Positions 853-9,870 of a stretch of 10,386 bases of DNA are shown here, piece after piece. The notes beneath the pieces were generated by a model that searched no databases, was not told where the DNA came from, and saw only the letters and a list, made by a program, of their open reading frames with translations. Position 1 is the stretch's first letter; the number at the start of each line of letters is the position of its first letter. The translations under genes and the position numbers were made by a program. The stretch spans positions 1 through 10,386 of the IMG/VR virus record IMGVR_UViG_3300028965_000008, one strand, 5' to 3'. This DNA comes from a virus. Lineage: Duplodnaviria; Heunggongvirae; Uroviricota; Caudoviricetes.

Positions 853-1080
853 ATGTTGAAAATTGATGCTATAGCGTTTTTTGGCAGCAAAACAAAGCTT
901 GCCAATGCCGCAGGAGTTAGGCTGGCAAGCATTGCTGCATGGGGGGAACTGGTTCCTGAAGGTCGCGCGATGCGCCTGCAAGAGGCATCCGGCGGGGAAC
1001 TTCAGTACGACCCTAAAGTTTATGACGAATATCGTAAGGCAAAGCGGGCGGGGCGGTTGAACAATGAAAATCACCCCTGA
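853..1080 (+). CDS. dicC: Cro-like regulator DicC, 75 aa
   Basis: MLKIDAIAFFGSKTKLANAAGVRLASIAAWGELVPEGRAMRLQEASGGELQYDPKVYDEYRKAKRAGRLNNENHP resembles DicC as recalled; divergent from the dicA-like gene; strong SD AAGGAG. Confidence 0.8.
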   Translation: MLKIDAIAFFGSKTKLANAAGVRLASIAAWGELVPEGRAMRLQEASGGELQYDPKVYDEYRKAKRAGRLNNENHP

Positions 1081-1615
1081 ACAGGTTTGTGAGGCTCTGG
1101 ATGCCTGGGTATGCCGACCAGGAATGACACAGGAGCAGGCGACGATATTAATCACGGAAGCATTCTGGGCTCTGAAAGAACGCCCGAACATTGATGTTCA
1201 ACGCGTCACGTTTGATGATGGCGCGGTTGATCAACGGGCACTGGGCGTTAACCGGGTGAAGATATTCGAACGCTGGAAAGCTATCGACACCAGGGATAAG
1301 CGTGAAAAATTCACGGCGCTGATTCCGGCAATTATGGAGGCTATCCGGATCAGCGATTTCAGGTTGTATTGTGAAATTACTGACGGAAAAAGCATTACGT
1401 ACATGATCGCCGGGTTAAACAAAGAATATGGCGATGTGGTGGAGTCCGGGCTGCTTTTTGCGGATCCAGCTGTTGTGGAGCGTGAGACTGACGAGCTTAT
1501 AGAAAAAGCTATTGCTTTCAAGCATGCGTATCGTCAGCAATACCAACATTACTTTGCAGATAAACAAATATCTGTCTGGGGTTCGTATGAGTATCGATGC
1601 ACTACGATGGGCTAA
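1064..1615 (+). CDS. YdaT-like protein (CII-position prophage regulator/toxin family), 183 aa
   Basis: ATG at 1064 overlaps the dicC stop. The segment DKREKFTALIPAIMEAI resembles the conserved core of Rac YdaT; position immediately after cro matches the cII slot. Confidence 0.55.
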   Translation: MKITPEQVCEALDAWVCRPGMTQEQATILITEAFWALKERPNIDVQRVTFDDGAVDQRALGVNRVKIFERWKAIDTRDKREKFTALIPAIMEAIRISDFRLYCEITDGKSITYMIAGLNKEYGDVVESGLLFADPAVVERETDELIEKAIAFKHAYRQQYQHYFADKQISVWGSYEYRCTTMG

Positions 1616-4595: not shown

Positions 4596-4961
4596 ATGGC
4601 ACTGACGAAAAAGCAACGTGCAGAACTGCGCATGAAGTTCGGTGGTCGCTGTGCTTATTGCGGCTGCGAACTTGGCGAAAAGTGGCATGCAGACCATGTA
4701 AAACCGGTCATTCGTTTTGATGGAAATATGCTTCACCAGGAACGTGACGGTATATCCAACATGGTTCCGGCATGCCACCCATGCAATCTGCACAAGCATT
4801 GCAGTAGCCTGGAAGATTATCGGCGAATTATCAGTGATGGTCGTCGTGAATTCCTTGCGTCCGGGAAAGGCAAAGCGCTGGTTCGTATGGGATTGGTTGA
4901 AATGAAACCTGACCCGGTTGTGTTCTGGTTTGAAAAATATCAAGAAGGGGCTACAGCATGA
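4596..4961 (+). CDS. HNH endonuclease, 121 aa
   Basis: MALTKKQRAELRMKFGGRCAYCGCEL...HADHVKPV...NMVPACHPCNLHK carries the HNH signature (CxxC, H-N-H, CxxC); SD AAGGAAAG 5 nt before the ATG at 4596. Confidence 0.8.
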   Translation: MALTKKQRAELRMKFGGRCAYCGCELGEKWHADHVKPVIRFDGNMLHQERDGISNMVPACHPCNLHKHCSSLEDYRRIISDGRREFLASGKGKALVRMGLVEMKPDPVVFWFEKYQEGATA

Positions 4962-5521
4962 CCACTTTTACCAATAGCAAACTAACAGACGAATACGTTT
5001 CAAATGCAACGTTGATTCGGCTCATTCTGTGGGCTGACCAGCACAATAGTCATTATGTTGCAGCGGCTCTGCGCGAGCTACAGGAGCGCCGCAAGGCTGA
5101 TAGTGTGCCTGTAGAAATCAACGACGACATGGCTTACGCATTCCATCGCGCACTGTCAGATTCATCGCCAGGCGCTGATGAGGTAGAGGAAATTAAGACA
5201 GGGTTGCGTGCAGCCTTTGCCAATGTCACCACCCAACCAGCACCAGTAGTGCCGGAATTTGAAACATGGTTTAACAGCCAGGAGTCAGGGAGGAGTATAT
5301 GCAGCACACAGATTCGTCGTTACCTTCAGGAAATTTCATGGAACGCCTGCCGCGCCGCCATGCTTAAGGGAGATAAATCACGATTAATCGAACCAAACTG
5401 GAGCACATTCTCGAATATGCCAGGCAGCAGAAATGTATTGGGCAACTTTGTAAAATTCCACCAGGAGATATGGTTGAAATCGTGGAAATTGCCATGCGCA
5501 AGGCTGGCAACTCTCCGGTAA
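4958..5521 (+). CDS. Hypothetical prophage protein, 187 aa as read; the 3' end may be frameshifted into the DUF551 gene
   Basis: ATG at 4958 overlaps the HNH stop (ATGA), with SD GAAGGGG. The C-terminal tail WLKSWKLPCARLATLR looks non-native, while the alternative frame is open from 5377 and reads protein-like sequence. Confidence 0.5.
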   Translation: MTTFTNSKLTDEYVSNATLIRLILWADQHNSHYVAAALRELQERRKADSVPVEINDDMAYAFHRALSDSSPGADEVEEIKTGLRAAFANVTTQPAPVVPEFETWFNSQESGRSICSTQIRRYLQEISWNACRAAMLKGDKSRLIEPNWSTFSNMPGSRNVLGNFVKFHQEIWLKSWKLPCARLATLR

Positions 5522-5739
5522 CTCCGGATGGTTGGATAAGCTGTAGTGAGCGAATGCCGGATACCAAAACAGCCGTTCTTGTTGCCGTGGAGTTTGACAG
5601 GAAAGGTGACTGGCGAATGAAATGGGCGACTTACATCCCGGGGCATCCTGACGCTAATGATGGGTGGATAATTCCTGGTGCGTCGTGGAAACCGTCACAC
5701 TGGATGCCGCTACCGGAACCGCCACAGGAGGTGAGTTAA
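5470..5739 (+). CDS. DUF551 domain protein, 89 aa from ATG 5470
   Basis: The C-terminus ...DGWIIPGASWKPSHWMPLPEPP is typical of DUF551 prophage proteins as recalled. AGGAG lies only 2 nt before the ATG, and the frame is open upstream to 5377 with no canonical start, so the true N-terminus is uncertain. Confidence 0.6.
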   Translation: MVEIVEIAMRKAGNSPVTPDGWISCSERMPDTKTAVLVAVEFDRKGDWRMKWATYIPGHPDANDGWIIPGASWKPSHWMPLPEPPQEVS

Positions 5740-5822: not shown

Positions 5823-5834
5823 ATCACCGTAAAA

Positions 5835-5874
5835 AAAGATCCCGACACAAACATGAGCCGGGATCTTTGATTTA
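5835..5874. terminator. Putative bidirectional intrinsic terminator
   Basis: 10-bp stem AAAGATCCCG (5835-5844) / CGGGATCTTT (5859-5868) with a 14-nt loop; an A-run precedes it (a T-run on the minus strand) and TTTGATTTAT follows. Confidence 0.45.
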
Positions 5875-5940
5875 TATAGCTTACGAATCCGCCAGTAAGA
5901 GAGCGGGGCGGATGGCTTATTTTAACATTGGGGTGGAGGA

Positions 5941-5983
5941 ACCAAAAGTGTTGTTTTGGCTTACCAAAACGATCGTTTTGGTA
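5941..5983. promoter_or_regulatory. Tandem inverted repeats including a perfect 22-bp palindrome TACCAAAACGATCGTTTTGGTA
   Basis: Arms ACCAAAA / TTTTGG(C/T) occur at 5941-5947, 5954-5960, 5963-5969 and 5976-5982; the palindrome at 5962-5983 is perfect and centred on GATC. It lies upstream of the Doc cassette. Confidence 0.4.
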
Positions 5984-6094
5984 GCTAAAAATTTTTATCC
6001 GCATTAGACTAATCTAACCTTAGTACTACACTATTAATTACGCGCCAGGTTGGTGCGTTGGCCTTGCCAAAAGAACTTCAAGGGAAACGACAAG

Positions 6095-6274
6095 ATGAGC
6101 TACGCACTCAAGAAACACACACGGCTAAATATTCCGCCTCGCGACAAACGGGTTGTGGCAGCCCCTCGCCCGGCGATTGATGAAAACTGCACTCATCGTG
6201 AGCAGGTGAAAAATGCTTTCGATTTCGGTTTTTCTCGTTACGAGAAGGCAATGGAAGAACTTTCAAAAGTGTAA
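6095..6274 (+). CDS. Small protein, 59 aa; putative partner (antitoxin candidate) of the downstream Doc-family toxin
   Basis: ATG at 6095 (MSYALKKHTRL...) with SD-like AGGGAAA 9 nt upstream; ends 18 nt before the Doc ORF. No resemblance to Phd/YefM or YhfG noted by eye. Confidence 0.5.
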   Translation: MSYALKKHTRLNIPPRDKRVVAAPRPAIDENCTHREQVKNAFDFGFSRYEKAMEELSKV

Positions 6275-6292
6275 TGATGGGTATTGTGCTCT

Positions 6293-6772
6293 ATGGCTGA
6301 GATTGTTGAAGGAGTGCATTACCTTACGGTTGATGATCTTGTTGAAATCAATCGTTCCCTAATTGAATTACAGACGCCAGATGAGCCCGTTGGTGTTCTG
6401 AGTCCAGATAGCTTAAGTTCTTCTCAGGCCCGTCCCAGCATGGTTCGATGGTATGAACAGACTAATGACATGTTTGTACTGGTATCGGTATTGATTGAAA
6501 GTCTGATTCAGAATCATCCGTTTGCTAATGCGAACAAACGAACAGCTATGATGGCTGGTTACGTCTTCTTGTTGTTGAATGGCTATGAGTTAACAGCACC
6601 AGGCGATGAAATCGTGGAAATGGCAGAGGGACTGGCCTGCAAAACCTATACTCGAGAAGATCTCGAGAACTGGTTGTGTTATTGGTCTCGTGCGTATGAC
6701 AGCCGGGAATTATGTAAAACAGGCGCAACTATTGTTTTGTATGAAACTATCAAGCTTAAAATAGAACAGTAA
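6293..6772 (+). CDS. Doc (death-on-curing) / Fic-fold family toxin
   Basis: HPFANANKRTAMMAGYVFLLLNGYEL matches the Doc signature HxFx(D/N)(A/G)NKR and resembles P1 Doc (HIFNDANKRTAL...FLRRNG). Start is ATG 6293 or the in-frame TTG at 6284. Confidence 0.8.
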   Translation: MAEIVEGVHYLTVDDLVEINRSLIELQTPDEPVGVLSPDSLSSSQARPSMVRWYEQTNDMFVLVSVLIESLIQNHPFANANKRTAMMAGYVFLLLNGYELTAPGDEIVEMAEGLACKTYTREDLENWLCYWSRAYDSRELCKTGATIVLYETIKLKIEQ

Positions 6773-6792
6773 AACTAAAGGTGCTTCTAATG

Positions 6793-6816
6793 AAAACCCG
6801 CTTCGGCGGGTTTTTT
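6793..6816 (+). terminator. Rho-independent terminator
   Basis: GC stem CCCGC (6797-6801) / GCGGG (6806-6810), flanked by A and T runs, with a UUCG tetraloop and a T6 tract at 6811-6816; lies 21 nt after the Doc stop. Confidence 0.75.
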
Positions 6817-7007
6817 GTTGTTTATCTTCGGTGAGCTTGATGCATCTGGTTGTACTGATGTGGCTGTCTGATTTTGTTATTCAGGTGGCTTATTGCTGTT
6901 GATTGGTATGTCTTCACGGCTAGAATCGAGGCTCTTAAGTAGCGCGCAGGGAGAAGAGGGATGGACCCCGAACAGGGGAGTGCTATTTATCTGGAAGGAT
7001 TCTGTTG

Positions 7008-8677: not shown

Positions 8678-9052
8678 ATGCGTATAGAGTTTGTTTTGCC
8701 TTACCCGCCAACGGTGAACACCTACTGGCGACGTCGTGGCAGCACATATTTTGTATCAAAAACCGGTGAGCGTTATCGCCGGGATGTGGCACTTATTGTT
8801 CGCCAGCAGCAACTGAAATTAAACCTGTCCGGAAGGCTGGCGATAAAGATTATTGCAGAGCCACCGGATAAGCGCCGTCGTGACCTGGACAATATTCTGA
8901 AAGCACCACTGGATGCGCTGACGCATGCGGGACTGCTTATCGACGACGAGCAGTTTGATGAAATCAATATTGTGCGCGGTCAGGTCGTTCCCGGTGGGCG
9001 GTTGGGCGTGAAAATTTACGAAATAATGCATGACGGGCAGGTCAAAAAATGA
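8678..9052 (+). CDS. rusA: RusA Holliday-junction resolvase
   Basis: LPYPPTVNTYWRRRG...DKRRRDLDNILKAPLDALTHAGLLIDDEQ resembles E. coli RusA (LPWPPSNNRYYRH...[27 protein letters not shown]); SD AAGAGG. Confidence 0.85.
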   Translation: MRIEFVLPYPPTVNTYWRRRGSTYFVSKTGERYRRDVALIVRQQQLKLNLSGRLAIKIIAEPPDKRRRDLDNILKAPLDALTHAGLLIDDEQFDEINIVRGQVVPGGRLGVKIYEIMHDGQVKK

Positions 9053-9870
9053 AGCTGGAAGATTTACCGAAATACTATTCCCCGAAATCGCCTGGCCTGA
9101 CCGATGCGTCCGCCTCGACATCAAAAGATGCGCTGAGCATCACTGATGTGATGGCTGCGCAGGGTATGACACAAAACCGGGCTGAGATGGGGTTTTCTGC
9201 GTTCCTGGGGAAAATGGGCATTAGTATGAATGACAGGGCGCGGGCAACAGAATTACTGGCAGATTATGCATTAAGTCAGTGCGATCGCGTGGCGGCGTTA
9301 AGAAAGCTTCCGGCAGAAATAAAACCGGCAGTGATGCACATTATGGCCTCGTATGCCTTTGAGGATTATGCCCGCAGCGCAGCGAGTAAAAAGCGATGCC
9401 CTTGTTGCCGAGGGGAAAAATTTATTGAAAGCGAGGTTTTTACAAACAAGGTCCAGTATCCGGATGGTAAGCCGCCAGTATGGGCAAAGTGTACAAAAGG
9501 CGTGTATCCGTCTTACTGGGAAGAATGGAAAAAAATCCGGGAGGTGGTGAAAGTTTCCTGTCCTGAATGTAAAGGGAAGGGGGAGATTTCGACTGCCTGT
9601 AAAGATTGCCGTGGGCGTGGTGTTGCCATTCATCGTGAAGAATCAGAAAAACGGGGTATGCCTGTTATCAGGGACTGCCGGCGTTGTGGCGGTCGTGGCT
9701 ATGAAAGATTACCGTCAACGGAGGCATTTAATGCCATATGTGGGGTGACAAATCAGATAACACGCGCGTCATGGGAAAAAACGGTTAAGCAATTCTATGA
9801 CACGCTGGTGGTTCGGTTTGACATTGAAGAGGCATGGGCGGAGCGACAGTTAAAAAAGGTAACCAGATAA
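9049..9870 (+). CDS. Q-like late-gene antitermination protein, 273 aa, with CxxCxGxG zinc-finger repeats
   Basis: ATG overlaps the rusA stop (ATGA). Position immediately upstream of a late-promoter/terminator pair. Cys-rich repeats CPCCRGEK, CPECKGKG, CKDCRGRG, CRRCGGRG. Confidence 0.7.
   Translation: MKLEDLPKYYSPKSPGLTDASASTSKDALSITDVMAAQGMTQNRAEMGFSAFLGKMGISMNDRARATELLADYALSQCDRVAALRKLPAEIKPAVMHIMASYAFEDYARSAASKKRCPCCRGEKFIESEVFTNKVQYPDGKPPVWAKCTKGVYPSYWEEWKKIREVVKVSCPECKGKGEISTACKDCRGRGVAIHREESEKRGMPVIRDCRRCGGRGYERLPSTEAFNAICGVTNQITRASWEKTVKQFYDTLVVRFDIEEAWAERQLKKVTR

What the first reader, a model, noticed from the sequence alone, without database searches (positions are those of the whole stretch)
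6095..6772. Doc-family toxin paired with a small partner that does not look like Phd
The 160-aa ORF carries HPFANANKRTA, which matches the Doc kinase signature HxFx(D/N)(A/G)NKR rather than the Fic AMPylation motif HPFx(D/E)GNGR. The 59-aa gene immediately upstream (MSYALKKHTRLNIPPRDKRVVAAPRPAIDENCTHREQVKNAFDFGFSRYEKAMEELSKV) shows no resemblance by eye to Phd/YefM or to the FicA/YhfG inhibitory-helix motif [S/T]xxxE[G/N]. The pair is bracketed by terminators (5835-5874 and 6793-6816), so it looks like a self-contained cassette. It sits in the slot between the DUF551 and rem-like/DUF968 genes where K-12 Qin carries relBE-hokD, suggesting a hotspot for swapped toxin or defence cargo. This is a candidate non-canonical toxin-antitoxin or abortive-infection module.
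Basis: partly seen in the sequence, partly recalled or inferred. Interest (0 to 1): 0.68.

Follow-up and report, generated by a model that had tools for sequence, protein, structure and literature searches.

The report
Doc toxin with unannotated mini-antitoxin
A movable two-gene cassette in a Qin-like E. coli prophage encodes an ordinary Doc-type growth-arresting kinase and, just upstream, a conserved 59-residue protein of an undescribed family that is most likely its antidote, which extends a well-known kind of toxin-antitoxin system rather than founding a new one.

Summary
Window 6095-6274 encodes a 59-aa protein. Window 6293-6772 encodes a 159-aa Doc toxin: NCBIfam TIGR01550 scores 126 bits against a cut-off of 38.65, and the motif HPFANANKR is at residues 75-83.

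The small protein matches no Pfam, NCBIfam, PADLOC or PDB entry. Its only match is phrog_2208, "unknown function". Profile comparison with Phd gives 1.3% probability. It lacks the FicA motif [S/T]xxxE[G/N].

It is nevertheless a real gene (dN 0.02-0.06 against dS about 0.5). An ORF carrying the Doc motif follows it in 95 of 95 related loci, with gaps of -1 to 18 nt. These loci span several prophage contexts in E. coli, Salmonella, Morganella and Ewingella. Three sequenced phages, two of them Pseudomonas phages, also carry both genes.

AlphaFold predicts an extended N-terminus and one confident amphipathic helix (residues 34-57), with no DNA-binding fold. The hydrophobic register of that helix (F42, F46, Y49, M53, L56, then three residues to the end) mirrors the published hot spots of the Phd C-terminal helix.

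Best reading: a type II Doc module with a minimal antitoxin that only neutralises and works like Phd-C. The slot is a real cargo hotspot (relBE-hokD, KwaB-like with Hok, KilA-N with hokD in relatives). Toxicity, neutralisation and any defence role are untested. This is a new variant of a known kind, of moderate interest.

The parts
5835..5878 (+). Upstream hairpin terminator that ends the preceding 52-aa ORF and insulates the cassette from the prophage early operon
   Evidence: RNA fold gives -16.4 kcal/mol, z = -5.0, followed by TTTGATTTAT. The pattern scan did not list it; the apical region between the main stem arms exceeds its 3-8 nt loop limit.
6003..6010 (+). ATTAGACT, a candidate -10-like promoter element (inferred)
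   Evidence: A (G)TATTA(G/A)A(C/T)T element, often preceded by TGG, recurs 40-105 nt upstream of the small ORF in otherwise unalignable upstream regions from several lineages. The consensus promoter scan found no strong sigma-70 site here.
6040..6068 (+). Two short inverted repeats or hairpins in the presumed 5' leader: ACGCGCCA-GGT-TGGTGCGT and TGGC-CTT-GCCA. Their role is unknown.
   Evidence: RNAfold finds both. Comparable inverted repeats lie 15-57 nt upstream of the ATG in most lineages, but not in the O157-type context.
6080..6085 (+). Shine-Dalgarno-like AAGGGA, 9 nt before the ATG of the small ORF
   Evidence: Read directly from the sequence. Purine-rich equivalents occur in all lineages.
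6095..6274 (+). Gene for the 59-aa partner protein, the putative minimal antitoxin (phrog_2208, unknown function)
   Evidence: ORF. Purifying selection. A Doc-motif ORF follows it in 95 of 95 loci. No Pfam, NCBIfam, PADLOC or PDB match. phrog_2208 at E 1e-40.
6125..6148 (+). Codons for the conserved N-terminal linear motif L11-x-I13-P14-x-R16-D17-K18
   Evidence: I13, P14 and R16 are conserved in at least 90% of 39-41 family members down to about 40% identity. AlphaFold predicts this region as extended, with pLDDT about 77-85.
6194..6271 (+). Codons for the C-terminal amphipathic helix (residues 34-59), the putative Doc-neutralising element
   Evidence: AlphaFold helix 34-57 with pLDDT above 90. 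Nearly invariant among close relatives. Hydrophobic moment 0.47 against 0.21 for shuffles, p = 0.015. The F42/F46/Y49/M53/L56 register matches the Phd hot spots reported in PMC9207808.
6293..6772 (+). Gene for the 159-aa Doc-family toxin
   Evidence: TIGR01550 DOC_P1 at E 9.5e-37, 125.9 bits against cut-off 38.65. Pfam Fic at E 5e-11. phrog_577 Doc-like toxin. PDB 9VZC_A at E 5e-13 and P1 Doc 3K33 at E 1.6e-4.
6515..6541 (+). Codons for the catalytic motif H75-P-F-A-N-A-N-K-R83
   Evidence: Regex match. H75, F77, N81, K82, R83, T84 and A85 are invariant in the alignment that includes P1 Doc.
6792..6825 (+). Intrinsic terminator closing the cassette
   Evidence: Pattern scan: 10-bp stem with 5 G-C pairs, followed by a T run. 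Fold.

Best explanation
This is a prophage-borne, two-gene type II toxin-antitoxin cassette.

The downstream gene encodes a Doc-family kinase. By analogy with P1 and Salmonella Doc, it would phosphorylate EF-Tu and stop translation (inferred from family membership).

The upstream 59-aa protein is its dedicated antitoxin. It lacks a folded DNA-binding domain and consists essentially of a neutralising element. Its C-terminal amphipathic helix (residues 34-59) inserts its hydrophobic face (V38, A41, F42, F46, Y49, M53, L56) into the concave groove of Doc. This is how the bent C-terminal helices of P1 and Salmonella Phd, of E. faecalis Phd and of the PanA 'Phd-C' element work (inferred). The conserved extended N-terminal motif LxIPxRDK probably adds further contacts with Doc or governs the antitoxin's stability (speculative).

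Tight spacing (18 nt here, -1 to 18 nt elsewhere) keeps the two proteins co-expressed.

The cassette moves between accessory-gene slots of temperate phages. It most plausibly serves prophage retention and/or exclusion of other phages; that role is untested.

Shown: gene reality, family assignment of the toxin, absence of any known antitoxin domain, strict pairing, mobility and hotspot location.

Inferred: binding, neutralisation, EF-Tu as the target, lack of autoregulation and the biological role.
For: - The toxin is a Doc: TIGR01550 at 126 bits against a cut-off of 38.65, the Doc motif at residues 75-83 aligned with P1 Doc H66..R74, and best PDB matches to the Doc chains 9VZC and 3K33.
- The partner is under purifying selection.
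- A Doc-motif ORF lies immediately downstream of the partner in 95 of 95 loci, across unrelated prophage contexts. Two of those loci had no gene called at that position.
- Three sequenced phages (two Pseudomonas, one Salmonella) carry both genes; the two annotated Pseudomonas records show them adjacent.
- All 125 complete E. coli genomes that carry the cassette have both genes, always on the chromosome.
- AlphaFold with 41 sequences gives mean pLDDT 82, a single helix at 34-57 with pLDDT above 90, an extended N-terminus and no beta-alpha-alpha or beta-barrel fold.
- The helix is amphipathic. Its register F42-x3-F46-x2-Y49-x3-M53-x2-L56-x3-end is the same as the experimentally mapped Phd hot spots F56, M/F60, H63, L67, L70-x3-end, including the 14-residue spacing of the two 'gatekeeper' residues (PMC9207808).
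- There is published precedent that Doc-binding helices share no detectable sequence similarity between systems (E. faecalis against P1; PMC13034048).
- There is published precedent that a Phd-C element alone, fused to SUMO, neutralises a Doc, and that antitoxins made only of a neutralising domain exist (PMC10440598).
- A profile search of 1.84 billion representative proteins found only short family members of 38-95 aa, apart from one 2,917-aa protein matched over a 25-residue stretch. The 82-95 aa members have a Met at the usual start. So there is no longer ancestor form with a DNA-binding domain.
- In O157-type prophages, similarity to the window begins exactly at the ATG of the small gene. 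A nearly identical protein therefore works with a different upstream region.
Against: - There is no direct evidence of interaction.
- Similarity to the Phd C-terminus is not statistically supported. hhalign gave 0.15% and 1.3% probability. The end-anchored score gave only p of about 0.03 and was variable across the family. The register match could be what any amphipathic helix gives.
- Short inverted repeats upstream of the gene in most lineages could be operators, which would imply DNA binding by the small protein or by the complex.
- The strongly conserved N-terminal motif has no assigned role.
- Toxicity of this Doc subfamily has not been shown. One published Doc (Dickeya, canonical Phd partner) was only weakly toxic.
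Confidence: 0.65

Rival explanations
1. The small protein is a complete type II antitoxin that also represses its own promoter. It would bind DNA through a new minimal N-terminal element (for example a dimeric beta-ribbon formed by the LxIPxRDK segment) that recognises the inverted repeats upstream of the gene.
For: Inverted repeats (TGCAC..GTGCA type, TGGC-N3-GCCA type, others) lie 15-57 nt upstream of the ATG in most lineages. The N-terminal motif is as conserved as the helix and resembles the 'hxIPxx' strand-turn of AbrB/MazE and RHH antitoxins (from memory, a lead only). Canonical type II antitoxins autoregulate (PMC8630535 abstract).
Against: No Pfam AbrB/MazE, RHH or Phd model matches any of the 39 members at E<=1. 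AlphaFold predicts no strand or helix-1 in residues 7-33. Only about 25 residues precede the helix, too few for any known antitoxin DNA-binding fold. The spacer length of the inverted repeats varies from 3 to 8 nt, and all arm mismatches seen are G.U-compatible on the sense strand, which fits RNA hairpins better than operators (my reading). The O157-type context lacks these repeats although the protein is about 95% identical.
Confidence: 0.2
2. The small protein is a truncated true homologue of a Phd-type antitoxin. It would be a Phd/YefM, AbrB-like or other Doc antitoxin that lost its DNA-binding domain and diverged beyond recognition. The family would then be a degenerate member rather than an independent invention.
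For: It has the same gene order and the same position at the extreme C-terminus. It has the same hydrophobic register and ends three residues after the last 'gatekeeper' leucine, as in P1 and Salmonella Phd. hhalign's best though insignificant alignments fall in Phd residues 44-57.
Against: No statistical support. No intermediate longer forms were found among 1.84 billion representatives. The conserved N-terminal motif has no counterpart in Phd.
Confidence: 0.25
3. The small protein is not the antitoxin. The Doc homologue would be non-toxic or controlled otherwise (by a host factor or an RNA), and the small gene would be a co-transcribed phage moron or regulator with its own function.
For: Nothing in the sequence proves neutralisation. 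No known antitoxin domain is present. A weak sub-threshold Rfam istR/rsmX match overlaps the 3' end.
Against: The two genes are paired in 95 of 95 loci with gaps of -1 to 18 nt across unrelated contexts and genera. They are retained together in all 125 E. coli genomes that carry the cassette. The catalytic motif of Doc is intact and invariant, so an uninhibited copy should be harmful. The Rfam hits are far below gathering scores and coincide with the terminator.
Confidence: 0.07

Closest known systems
Phd-Doc of bacteriophage P1 and of Salmonella Typhimurium (PDB 3K33, 3DD7; PMC9207808)
   Same: The toxin belongs to the same family and has the same catalytic motif HxFx(D/N)(A/G)NKR. The antitoxin gene lies immediately upstream. 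The putative neutralising element is a C-terminal amphipathic helix with the same hydrophobic spacing and the same distance to the C-terminus. The element is phage-borne.
   Different: The partner has no Phd/YefM N-terminal DNA-binding domain (59 against 73 aa; PF02604 not matched) and no significant sequence similarity. It has a conserved LxIPxRDK motif absent from Phd. The toxin is only about 24% identical to P1 Doc and carries a conserved C-terminal WLCxWSR..D..LC extension. The cassette sits in integrated prophages and never on plasmids, unlike the P1 plasmid-prophage addiction module.
Enterococcus faecalis Phd-Doc (PDB 9VZC; PMC13034048)
   Same: This Doc is the closest solved relative of the window's Doc (E 5e-13) and also has N at the D/N motif position. 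Its antitoxin has no sequence similarity to P1 Phd, yet binds through a bent C-terminal helix. This shows that partners of Doc diverge or are exchanged.
   Different: EFPhd has a folded AbrB-like 'beta-dome' DNA-binding domain (residues 1-55) and neutralises through toxin dimerisation. The 59-aa protein has no such domain, and its family profile does not match any PDB chain.
Corynebacterium doosanense Doc:PanA with a 'Phd-C' element (NetFlax; PMC10440598)
   Same: It shows that the Doc-neutralising helix is a portable linear element. Phd-C alone (as a SUMO fusion) suffices for neutralisation, which is the logic proposed here for a neutralising-only antitoxin.
   Different: In PanA the element is appended to a globular Panacea (DUF4065) domain. 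Here it stands essentially alone, and no Panacea match exists.
Class I Fic toxin / FicA-type antitoxin (VbhT-VbhA, FicT-FicA, YhfG)
   Same: A small helical partner is encoded upstream of a Fic-fold toxin.
   Different: The inhibitory motif [S/T]xxxE[G/N] is absent from the small protein, and the toxin has the Doc kinase motif, not HPFx(D/E)GN(G/K)R.

Membership tests
Doc toxin (Fic/Doc fold, NCBIfam TIGR01550 DOC_P1) | Sequence matches the family model above its curated cut-off | tested here: met
   TIGR01550 at 125.9 bits against cut-off 38.65, E 9.5e-37, full-length match 2-122/122. Pfam Fic PF02661 at 43.7 bits against 24. phrog_577 'Doc-like toxin' at E 5e-50.
Doc toxin (Fic/Doc fold, NCBIfam TIGR01550 DOC_P1) | Catalytic motif HxFx(D/N)(A/G)NKR rather than the AMPylation motif HPFx(D/E)GN(G/K)R | tested here: met
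   HPFANANKR at residues 75-83; no AMPylation motif. H, F, N, K, R, T and A are invariant and aligned with P1 Doc H66..A76.
Doc toxin (Fic/Doc fold, NCBIfam TIGR01550 DOC_P1) | Phosphorylates EF-Tu and arrests growth when expressed without its antitoxin | not testable with these tools
   Needs expression and kinase assays.
Doc toxin (Fic/Doc fold, NCBIfam TIGR01550 DOC_P1) | Fic/Doc all-helical fold | tested here: inconclusive
   The AlphaFold model from a shallow alignment of close homologues had pLDDT 46. Its six predicted helices are compatible with the fold, but the model is unusable for fold search.
Phd/YefM antitoxin | N-terminal Phd/YefM DNA-binding domain (PF02604) | tested here: not met
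   No Pfam or NCBIfam hit at E<=1 for the protein. Across 39 family members there were only scattered single-member chance matches (best E 0.026), none to PF02604. hhalign against P1 Phd gave 0.15%, and against a Phd alignment 1.3%. AlphaFold shows no globular N-terminal fold.
Phd/YefM antitoxin | C-terminal helix that binds the Doc groove (Phd-C) | tested here: inconclusive
   A confident amphipathic helix is present at the C-terminus, with the same hydrophobic register as the Phd hot spots. Sequence similarity is not significant, and complex prediction was not possible.
Phd/YefM antitoxin | Encoded immediately upstream of doc and co-oriented with it | tested here: met
   18-nt gap on the same strand. 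Gaps are -1 to 18 nt in 95 of 95 loci.
FicA / YhfG / VbhA class I Fic antitoxin | Inhibitory helix motif [S/T]xxxE[G/N] | tested here: not met
   The regex finds none in the 59-aa protein.
AbrB/MazE/SpoVT-type or RHH-type antitoxin | Swapped-hairpin beta-barrel or beta-alpha-alpha DNA-binding domain | tested here: not met
   No Pfam match in any of 39 members. The AlphaFold secondary structure is coil plus one helix. Foldseek against PDB gave no match.
Panacea (PanA, DUF4065) antitoxin | Panacea domain | tested here: not met
   No Pfam match. The protein is far too short.
Type II toxin-antitoxin module (generic) | Two small adjacent co-transcribed genes, one a recognised toxin, strictly co-inherited | tested here: met
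   and contexts.
Type II toxin-antitoxin module (generic) | The antitoxin protein binds and neutralises the toxin, and the antitoxin is labile | not testable with these tools
   Needs rescue assays, pull-downs and stability measurements.
Type II toxin-antitoxin module (generic) | Autoregulation through an operator bound by the antitoxin or the complex | tested here: inconclusive
   Inverted repeats occur upstream in most lineages, but they are variable and absent in the O157-type context. No DNA-binding fold is predicted.
Known anti-phage defence system (PADLOC models) | Match to a model of a described or candidate defence protein | tested here: not met
   There is no hit for the small protein. 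Doc gives only marginal hits to Fic-motif regions of PDC-S23 and PDC-S05 (E 0.005-0.04, 11-14 bits).

The most novel reading that the evidence does not exclude
The 59-aa protein may be more than a passive Phd-C mimic. It could be a minimal antitoxin without a DNA-binding domain whose invariant N-terminal linear motif (LxIPxRDK) is the functional switch. That motif might reach into the Doc active site as a new inhibitory element. Alternatively it might act as a degron or decoy that an infecting phage (or loss of the prophage) removes. In either case the cassette would be a prophage-encoded, EF-Tu-targeting abortive-infection system with a sensing mode not yet described for Doc.
Probability: 0.15. 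Interest if true: 0.65.

Novelty: new variant of a known kind. Interest (0 to 1): 0.4.

Why it matters
- Doc is one of the best-understood toxin folds, yet the partner in this widespread prophage version is annotated only as "hypothetical protein". This holds in every record examined: 125 of 5,426 complete E. coli genomes including O157:H7, plus Salmonella, Morganella, Ewingella and Pseudomonas phages. As a result, TA and defence finders will score the toxin as an orphan.
- Recognising the small protein as a new Doc-antitoxin family (phrog_2208) would fix that annotation gap.
- It would provide a natural example of an antitoxin reduced to its neutralising element, a concept so far supported mainly by engineered constructs.
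- It would give a compact 59-aa scaffold for studies of peptide inhibitors of Doc.
- Its position in a prophage slot that elsewhere carries relBE-hokD or a Kiwa-like gene makes it a reasonable candidate to test for phage exclusion.
- It does not open a new category of system.

Tried and rejected
- Complex prediction. No model of the complex could therefore be made.
- Doc monomer model. The alignment of 36 close homologues gave pLDDT 46, so no fold search was attempted on it.
- Fold search with the small-protein model against PDB returned nothing, as expected for a single helix.
- Phd homology. hhalign against P1 Phd and against a Phd alignment (which had little diversity and contained some frameshifted rows), together with an end-anchored BLOSUM test, gave no significant signal. 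I therefore do not claim homology.
- RHH or AbrB idea for the N-terminus. I considered it because of the 'RLNIPPRD' resemblance to strand-turn motifs. I rejected it as a membership claim after the Pfam and AlphaFold results.
- The search for related loci with the wide alignment failed because no conserved stretch was available. The close alignment worked.
- Literature. Accession searches found nothing. The Dickeya and Erwinia 'Phd-Doc' papers concern canonical Phd partners. The Pas sRNA preprint matched 'doc' only inside other words.
- Rfam scan. It gave only sub-threshold hits driven by the terminator.
- A GTDB-wide scan for taxonomic range was not run because the cost was not justified by the question.
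Full report
**What is there**

On the + strand, an ATG at 6095 opens a 59-codon ORF that ends at TAA 6272-6274. It is preceded by AAGGGA at 6080-6085. Eighteen nucleotides later, in the same frame, an ATG at 6293 opens a 159-codon ORF that ends at 6770-6772.

A G+C-rich hairpin with a T run follows at 6792-6815. Upstream, the pattern scan did not list a terminator. Folding 5825-5885 nevertheless gives a hairpin of -16.4 kcal/mol (z = -5.0) followed by TTTGATTTAT. The two-terminator bracket is therefore real.

**The toxin**

- The 159-aa protein matches NCBIfam TIGR01550 (death-on-curing family toxin) over the full model at 125.9 bits, against a cut-off of 38.65.
- It also matches Pfam Fic/DOC and phrog_577 "Doc-like toxin".
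- Its best solved relatives are the E. faecalis Doc of 9VZC (E 5e-13) and P1 Doc (E 1.6e-4).
- HPFANANKR at residues 75-83 fits the Doc kinase motif. The protein contains neither the Fic AMPylation motif nor an alpha-inh motif.
- H75, F77, N81, K82, R83, T84 and A85 are invariant in an alignment that includes P1 Doc.
- The subfamily (at least 290 clusters at 90% identity; the 120 listed are at least 65% identical to the query, all Enterobacterales) has a conserved C-terminal WLCxWSRxYDxRxLC segment followed by a variable tail.

**The partner**

- The 59-aa protein has no Pfam or NCBIfam hit at E<=1, no PADLOC hit and no PDB sequence hit.
- Its only family assignment is phrog_2208, "unknown function".
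- Every source that names it calls it hypothetical or "phage protein".
- A profile of 14 relatives searched against 1.84 billion representative proteins found 38 clusters. Apart from one 2,917-aa protein matched only over a 25-residue stretch, which I treat as spurious, all are 38-95 aa. The 82-95 aa members have a Met at the usual start, so they are over-extended gene calls.
- None of 39 members hits a Pfam family beyond noise. The wide profile hits nothing in the PDB, including the Phd and EFPhd chains.
- hhalign gives 0.15% probability against P1 Phd and 1.3% against a Phd alignment.
- The FicA motif [S/T]xxxE[G/N] is absent.

**Is the partner a real gene tied to Doc?**

Yes.

- Against E. 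coli-type relatives dN is 0.02-0.06 and dS about 0.5. The C-terminal 26 codons have dN 0-0.016 in that group. In more distant lineages dS is saturated, while dN stays near 0.2 overall and between 0.05 and 0.18 in the C-terminal part.
- I examined 95 loci: 80 IMG/VR contigs found through the small protein, plus loci found through Doc or by DNA similarity. In all 95, the small ORF is followed within -1 to 18 nt by an ORF carrying the Doc motif. Two of these loci had no gene called at that position.
- The pair occurs in unrelated settings:
  - the nin-like region of lambdoid prophages;
  - between tail and baseplate genes in Ewingella and Morganella prophages;
  - beside hok, parDE and vapBC in a Salmonella prophage;
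  - between KilA-N genes near the tail module in another Salmonella prophage;
  - next to dinI-umuDC;
  - next to the integrase in Pseudomonas phages Sirocco and LPPA56.
- In complete E. coli genomes the cassette is present in 125 of 5,426. Both genes are always present, and the cassette is always chromosomal. It is absent from the plasmid collection, apart from one mislabelled 4-Mb Proteus record.

**Anatomy of the partner**

Two conserved blocks stand out. The first is an N-terminal linear motif, L11-x-I13-P14-x-R16-D17-K18. The second is a C-terminal segment, H34..Q37-V-x-N-A41-F42-x3-F46-x-R-Y49-E-K-A-x3-L56-S-K-V59, which is nearly invariant among close relatives.

AlphaFold with 41 sequences gives mean pLDDT 82. 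It predicts one helix at 34-57 with pLDDT above 90, and an extended N-terminus with pLDDT about 77-85. There is no strand or helix that could build an RHH, AbrB or Phd/YefM domain. Foldseek against the PDB finds nothing.

The helix is amphipathic, with hydrophobic moment 0.47 against 0.21 for shuffles (p = 0.015). Residues V38, A41, F42, G45, Y49, A52, M53, L56 and V59 lie on one face.

**How it most likely works**

Published work shows three things.

- In P1 and Salmonella Phd, residues 52-73 alone neutralise Doc. The hot spots are F56, I59, M/F60, H63, L67 and L70, and the 'gatekeepers' F56 and L70 lie 14 residues apart, three residues from the C-terminus (PMC9207808).
- The E. faecalis antitoxin binds its Doc through a bent C-terminal helix, although it has no sequence similarity to P1 Phd and a different, AbrB-like DNA-binding domain (PMC13034048).
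- A 'Phd-C' element attached to a Panacea domain, or merely to SUMO, neutralises a Corynebacterium Doc, and antitoxins made of a neutralising domain alone exist (PMC10440598).

The 59-aa protein shows the same register: F42, F46, Y49, M53, L56, then three residues to the end, with F42 and L56 again 14 apart. I therefore propose that it is a minimal antitoxin that only neutralises, and that its C-terminal helix occupies the Doc groove.

This is an inference. The sequence similarity is not significant, and I could not model the complex.

The role of the conserved N-terminal motif is open. It could provide additional contact with Doc, a degron, or something newer.

**Regulation**

No strong sigma-70 consensus lies between the upstream terminator and the gene.

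Upstream regions from different lineages are largely unalignable. They do share a (G)TATTA(G/A)A(C/T)T element (window 6003-6010), often in an extended -10-like context. They also share short inverted repeats 15-57 nt before the ATG (window 6040-6058 and 6059-6068).

By my reading, the spacers of these repeats vary from 3 to 8 nt, and the arm mismatches I saw are G.U-compatible on the sense strand. This favours leader hairpins over operators.

In O157-type prophages, similarity to the window starts exactly at the ATG, and these repeats are missing although the protein is about 95% identical. This fits an antitoxin that does not depend on a cognate operator, but it does not prove it.

**Context**

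The window is the immunity-to-Q segment of a Qin-like lambdoid prophage. In order it carries:

- a DicA-like repressor;
- Cro;
- YdaT;
- DnaT-like and P-like replication genes;
- DUF977;
- Ead/Ea22;
- HNH;
- DUF551;
- the Doc cassette;
- two small ORFs;
- DUF968;
- RusA;
- Q.

These assignments rest.

The slot upstream of the rem-like and DUF968 genes (after DUF551 in the window and in two of the relatives) carries different cargo elsewhere. K-12 Qin has relBE-hokD. Strain CEA224S has an unknown protein, a KwaB-like protein and Hok. Strain PSJ-22 has KilA-N and hokD. O157:H7 strain F6294 has hokD followed by this pair.

A role in prophage retention or phage exclusion is plausible from this company. 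Nothing here tests it, and PADLOC has no model for the pair.

**Comparison and verdict**

The toxin is a member of the Doc family. The partner fails the membership tests for Phd/YefM, FicA, AbrB/MazE, RHH and Panacea, and belongs to an unnamed family.

Functionally the pair looks like Phd-Doc with the DNA-binding half of the antitoxin missing. Exchange of partners and modular neutralising elements are already established themes in the field. A SLING-based survey of E. coli TA systems also lists many unnamed partners of Fic-domain toxins (PMC10790755).

I found no paper that describes this family.

I rate it a new variant of a known kind. It is real, widespread and unannotated, and worth a simple rescue experiment and a model of the complex, but it is not a categorical surprise.

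Noticed in passing
window 5941-5983: Four alternating copies of CCAAAA(C/G) and GTTTTGG form a very stable double hairpin (-19.7 kcal/mol, z = -5.4). The closest E. coli relative (L001) has a version 22 nt shorter with a single hairpin, so the window carries a local duplication. The element lies between the upstream terminator and the cassette. Its function is unknown.
   Followed up: partly
window 6040-6068, and equivalent positions in L005, L010, L013, L038, L064, L070 and others: Short inverted repeats lie just upstream of the ribosome-binding site of the small gene in most lineages (TGCAC..GTGCA type, TGGC-N3-GCCA type, ACATCAATTGATGT). Spacers vary, and mismatches are G.U-compatible on the sense strand. 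The repeats are absent in the O157-type context. Whether they are leader RNA hairpins or operators is undecided.
   Followed up: partly
window 6003-6010, and 40-105 nt upstream of the small gene in other loci: A semi-conserved (G)TATTA(G/A)A(C/T)T element, often preceded by TGG (extended -10-like), is the only sequence shared by otherwise unrelated upstream regions. It is a candidate promoter for the cassette.
   Followed up: partly
window 6727-6816: Sub-threshold Rfam matches to rsmX (32 bits against gathering score 56) and istR (25 against 45) span the 3' end of doc and the terminator. They are probably driven by the terminator hairpin.
   Followed up: no
L096 7143-9345 (E. coli CEA224S), L097 6513-7966 (PSJ-22), L100 4120-4873 (K-12 Qin): The same prophage slot carries a hypothetical protein, a KwaB-like (Kiwa) protein and Hok in one strain, KilA-N plus hokD in another, and relBE-hokD in K-12. 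It is an accessory and defence cargo hotspot next to the rem-like and DUF968 genes.
   Followed up: partly
window 6293-6772 (Doc residues 127-141): This Doc subfamily has a conserved C-terminal segment W127-L-C129-x-W131-S-R133-x-x-D136-x-R-x-L140-C141, absent from P1 Doc. It is followed by a tail of about 18 residues that varies freely between lineages.
   Followed up: no
window 1064-1615: This ORF corresponds to what PGAP names 'toxin YdaT family protein' in syntenic prophages. A structural paper retrieved in passing (PMC9986795) describes YdaT as a functional equivalent of the CII repressor, so the 'toxin' label is probably misleading.
   Followed up: no
window 9049-9870: The Q antiterminator homologue also matches the DnaJ CXXCXGXG zinc-finger model, just below the Pfam cut-off (32.6 against 32.7 bits).
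   Followed up: no
whole window; L016, L017: No complete E. coli genome in the collection matches the window end to end. The best is 81% coverage at 95.6% identity, and the best cassette match is 98.5%. Two IMG/VR contigs (UViG_2548876696_000001 and UViG_2526164688_000017) encode a small protein 100% identical to the window's.
   Followed up: no
window 4958-5739: The 187-aa ORF (4958-5521, no Pfam match) overlaps the start of the 89-aa DUF551 ORF (5470-5739) by about 50 nt in another frame. In a syntenic prophage the DUF551 protein is a single longer gene (693 nt), so a frameshift or a fusion/split may be present here.
   Followed up: no
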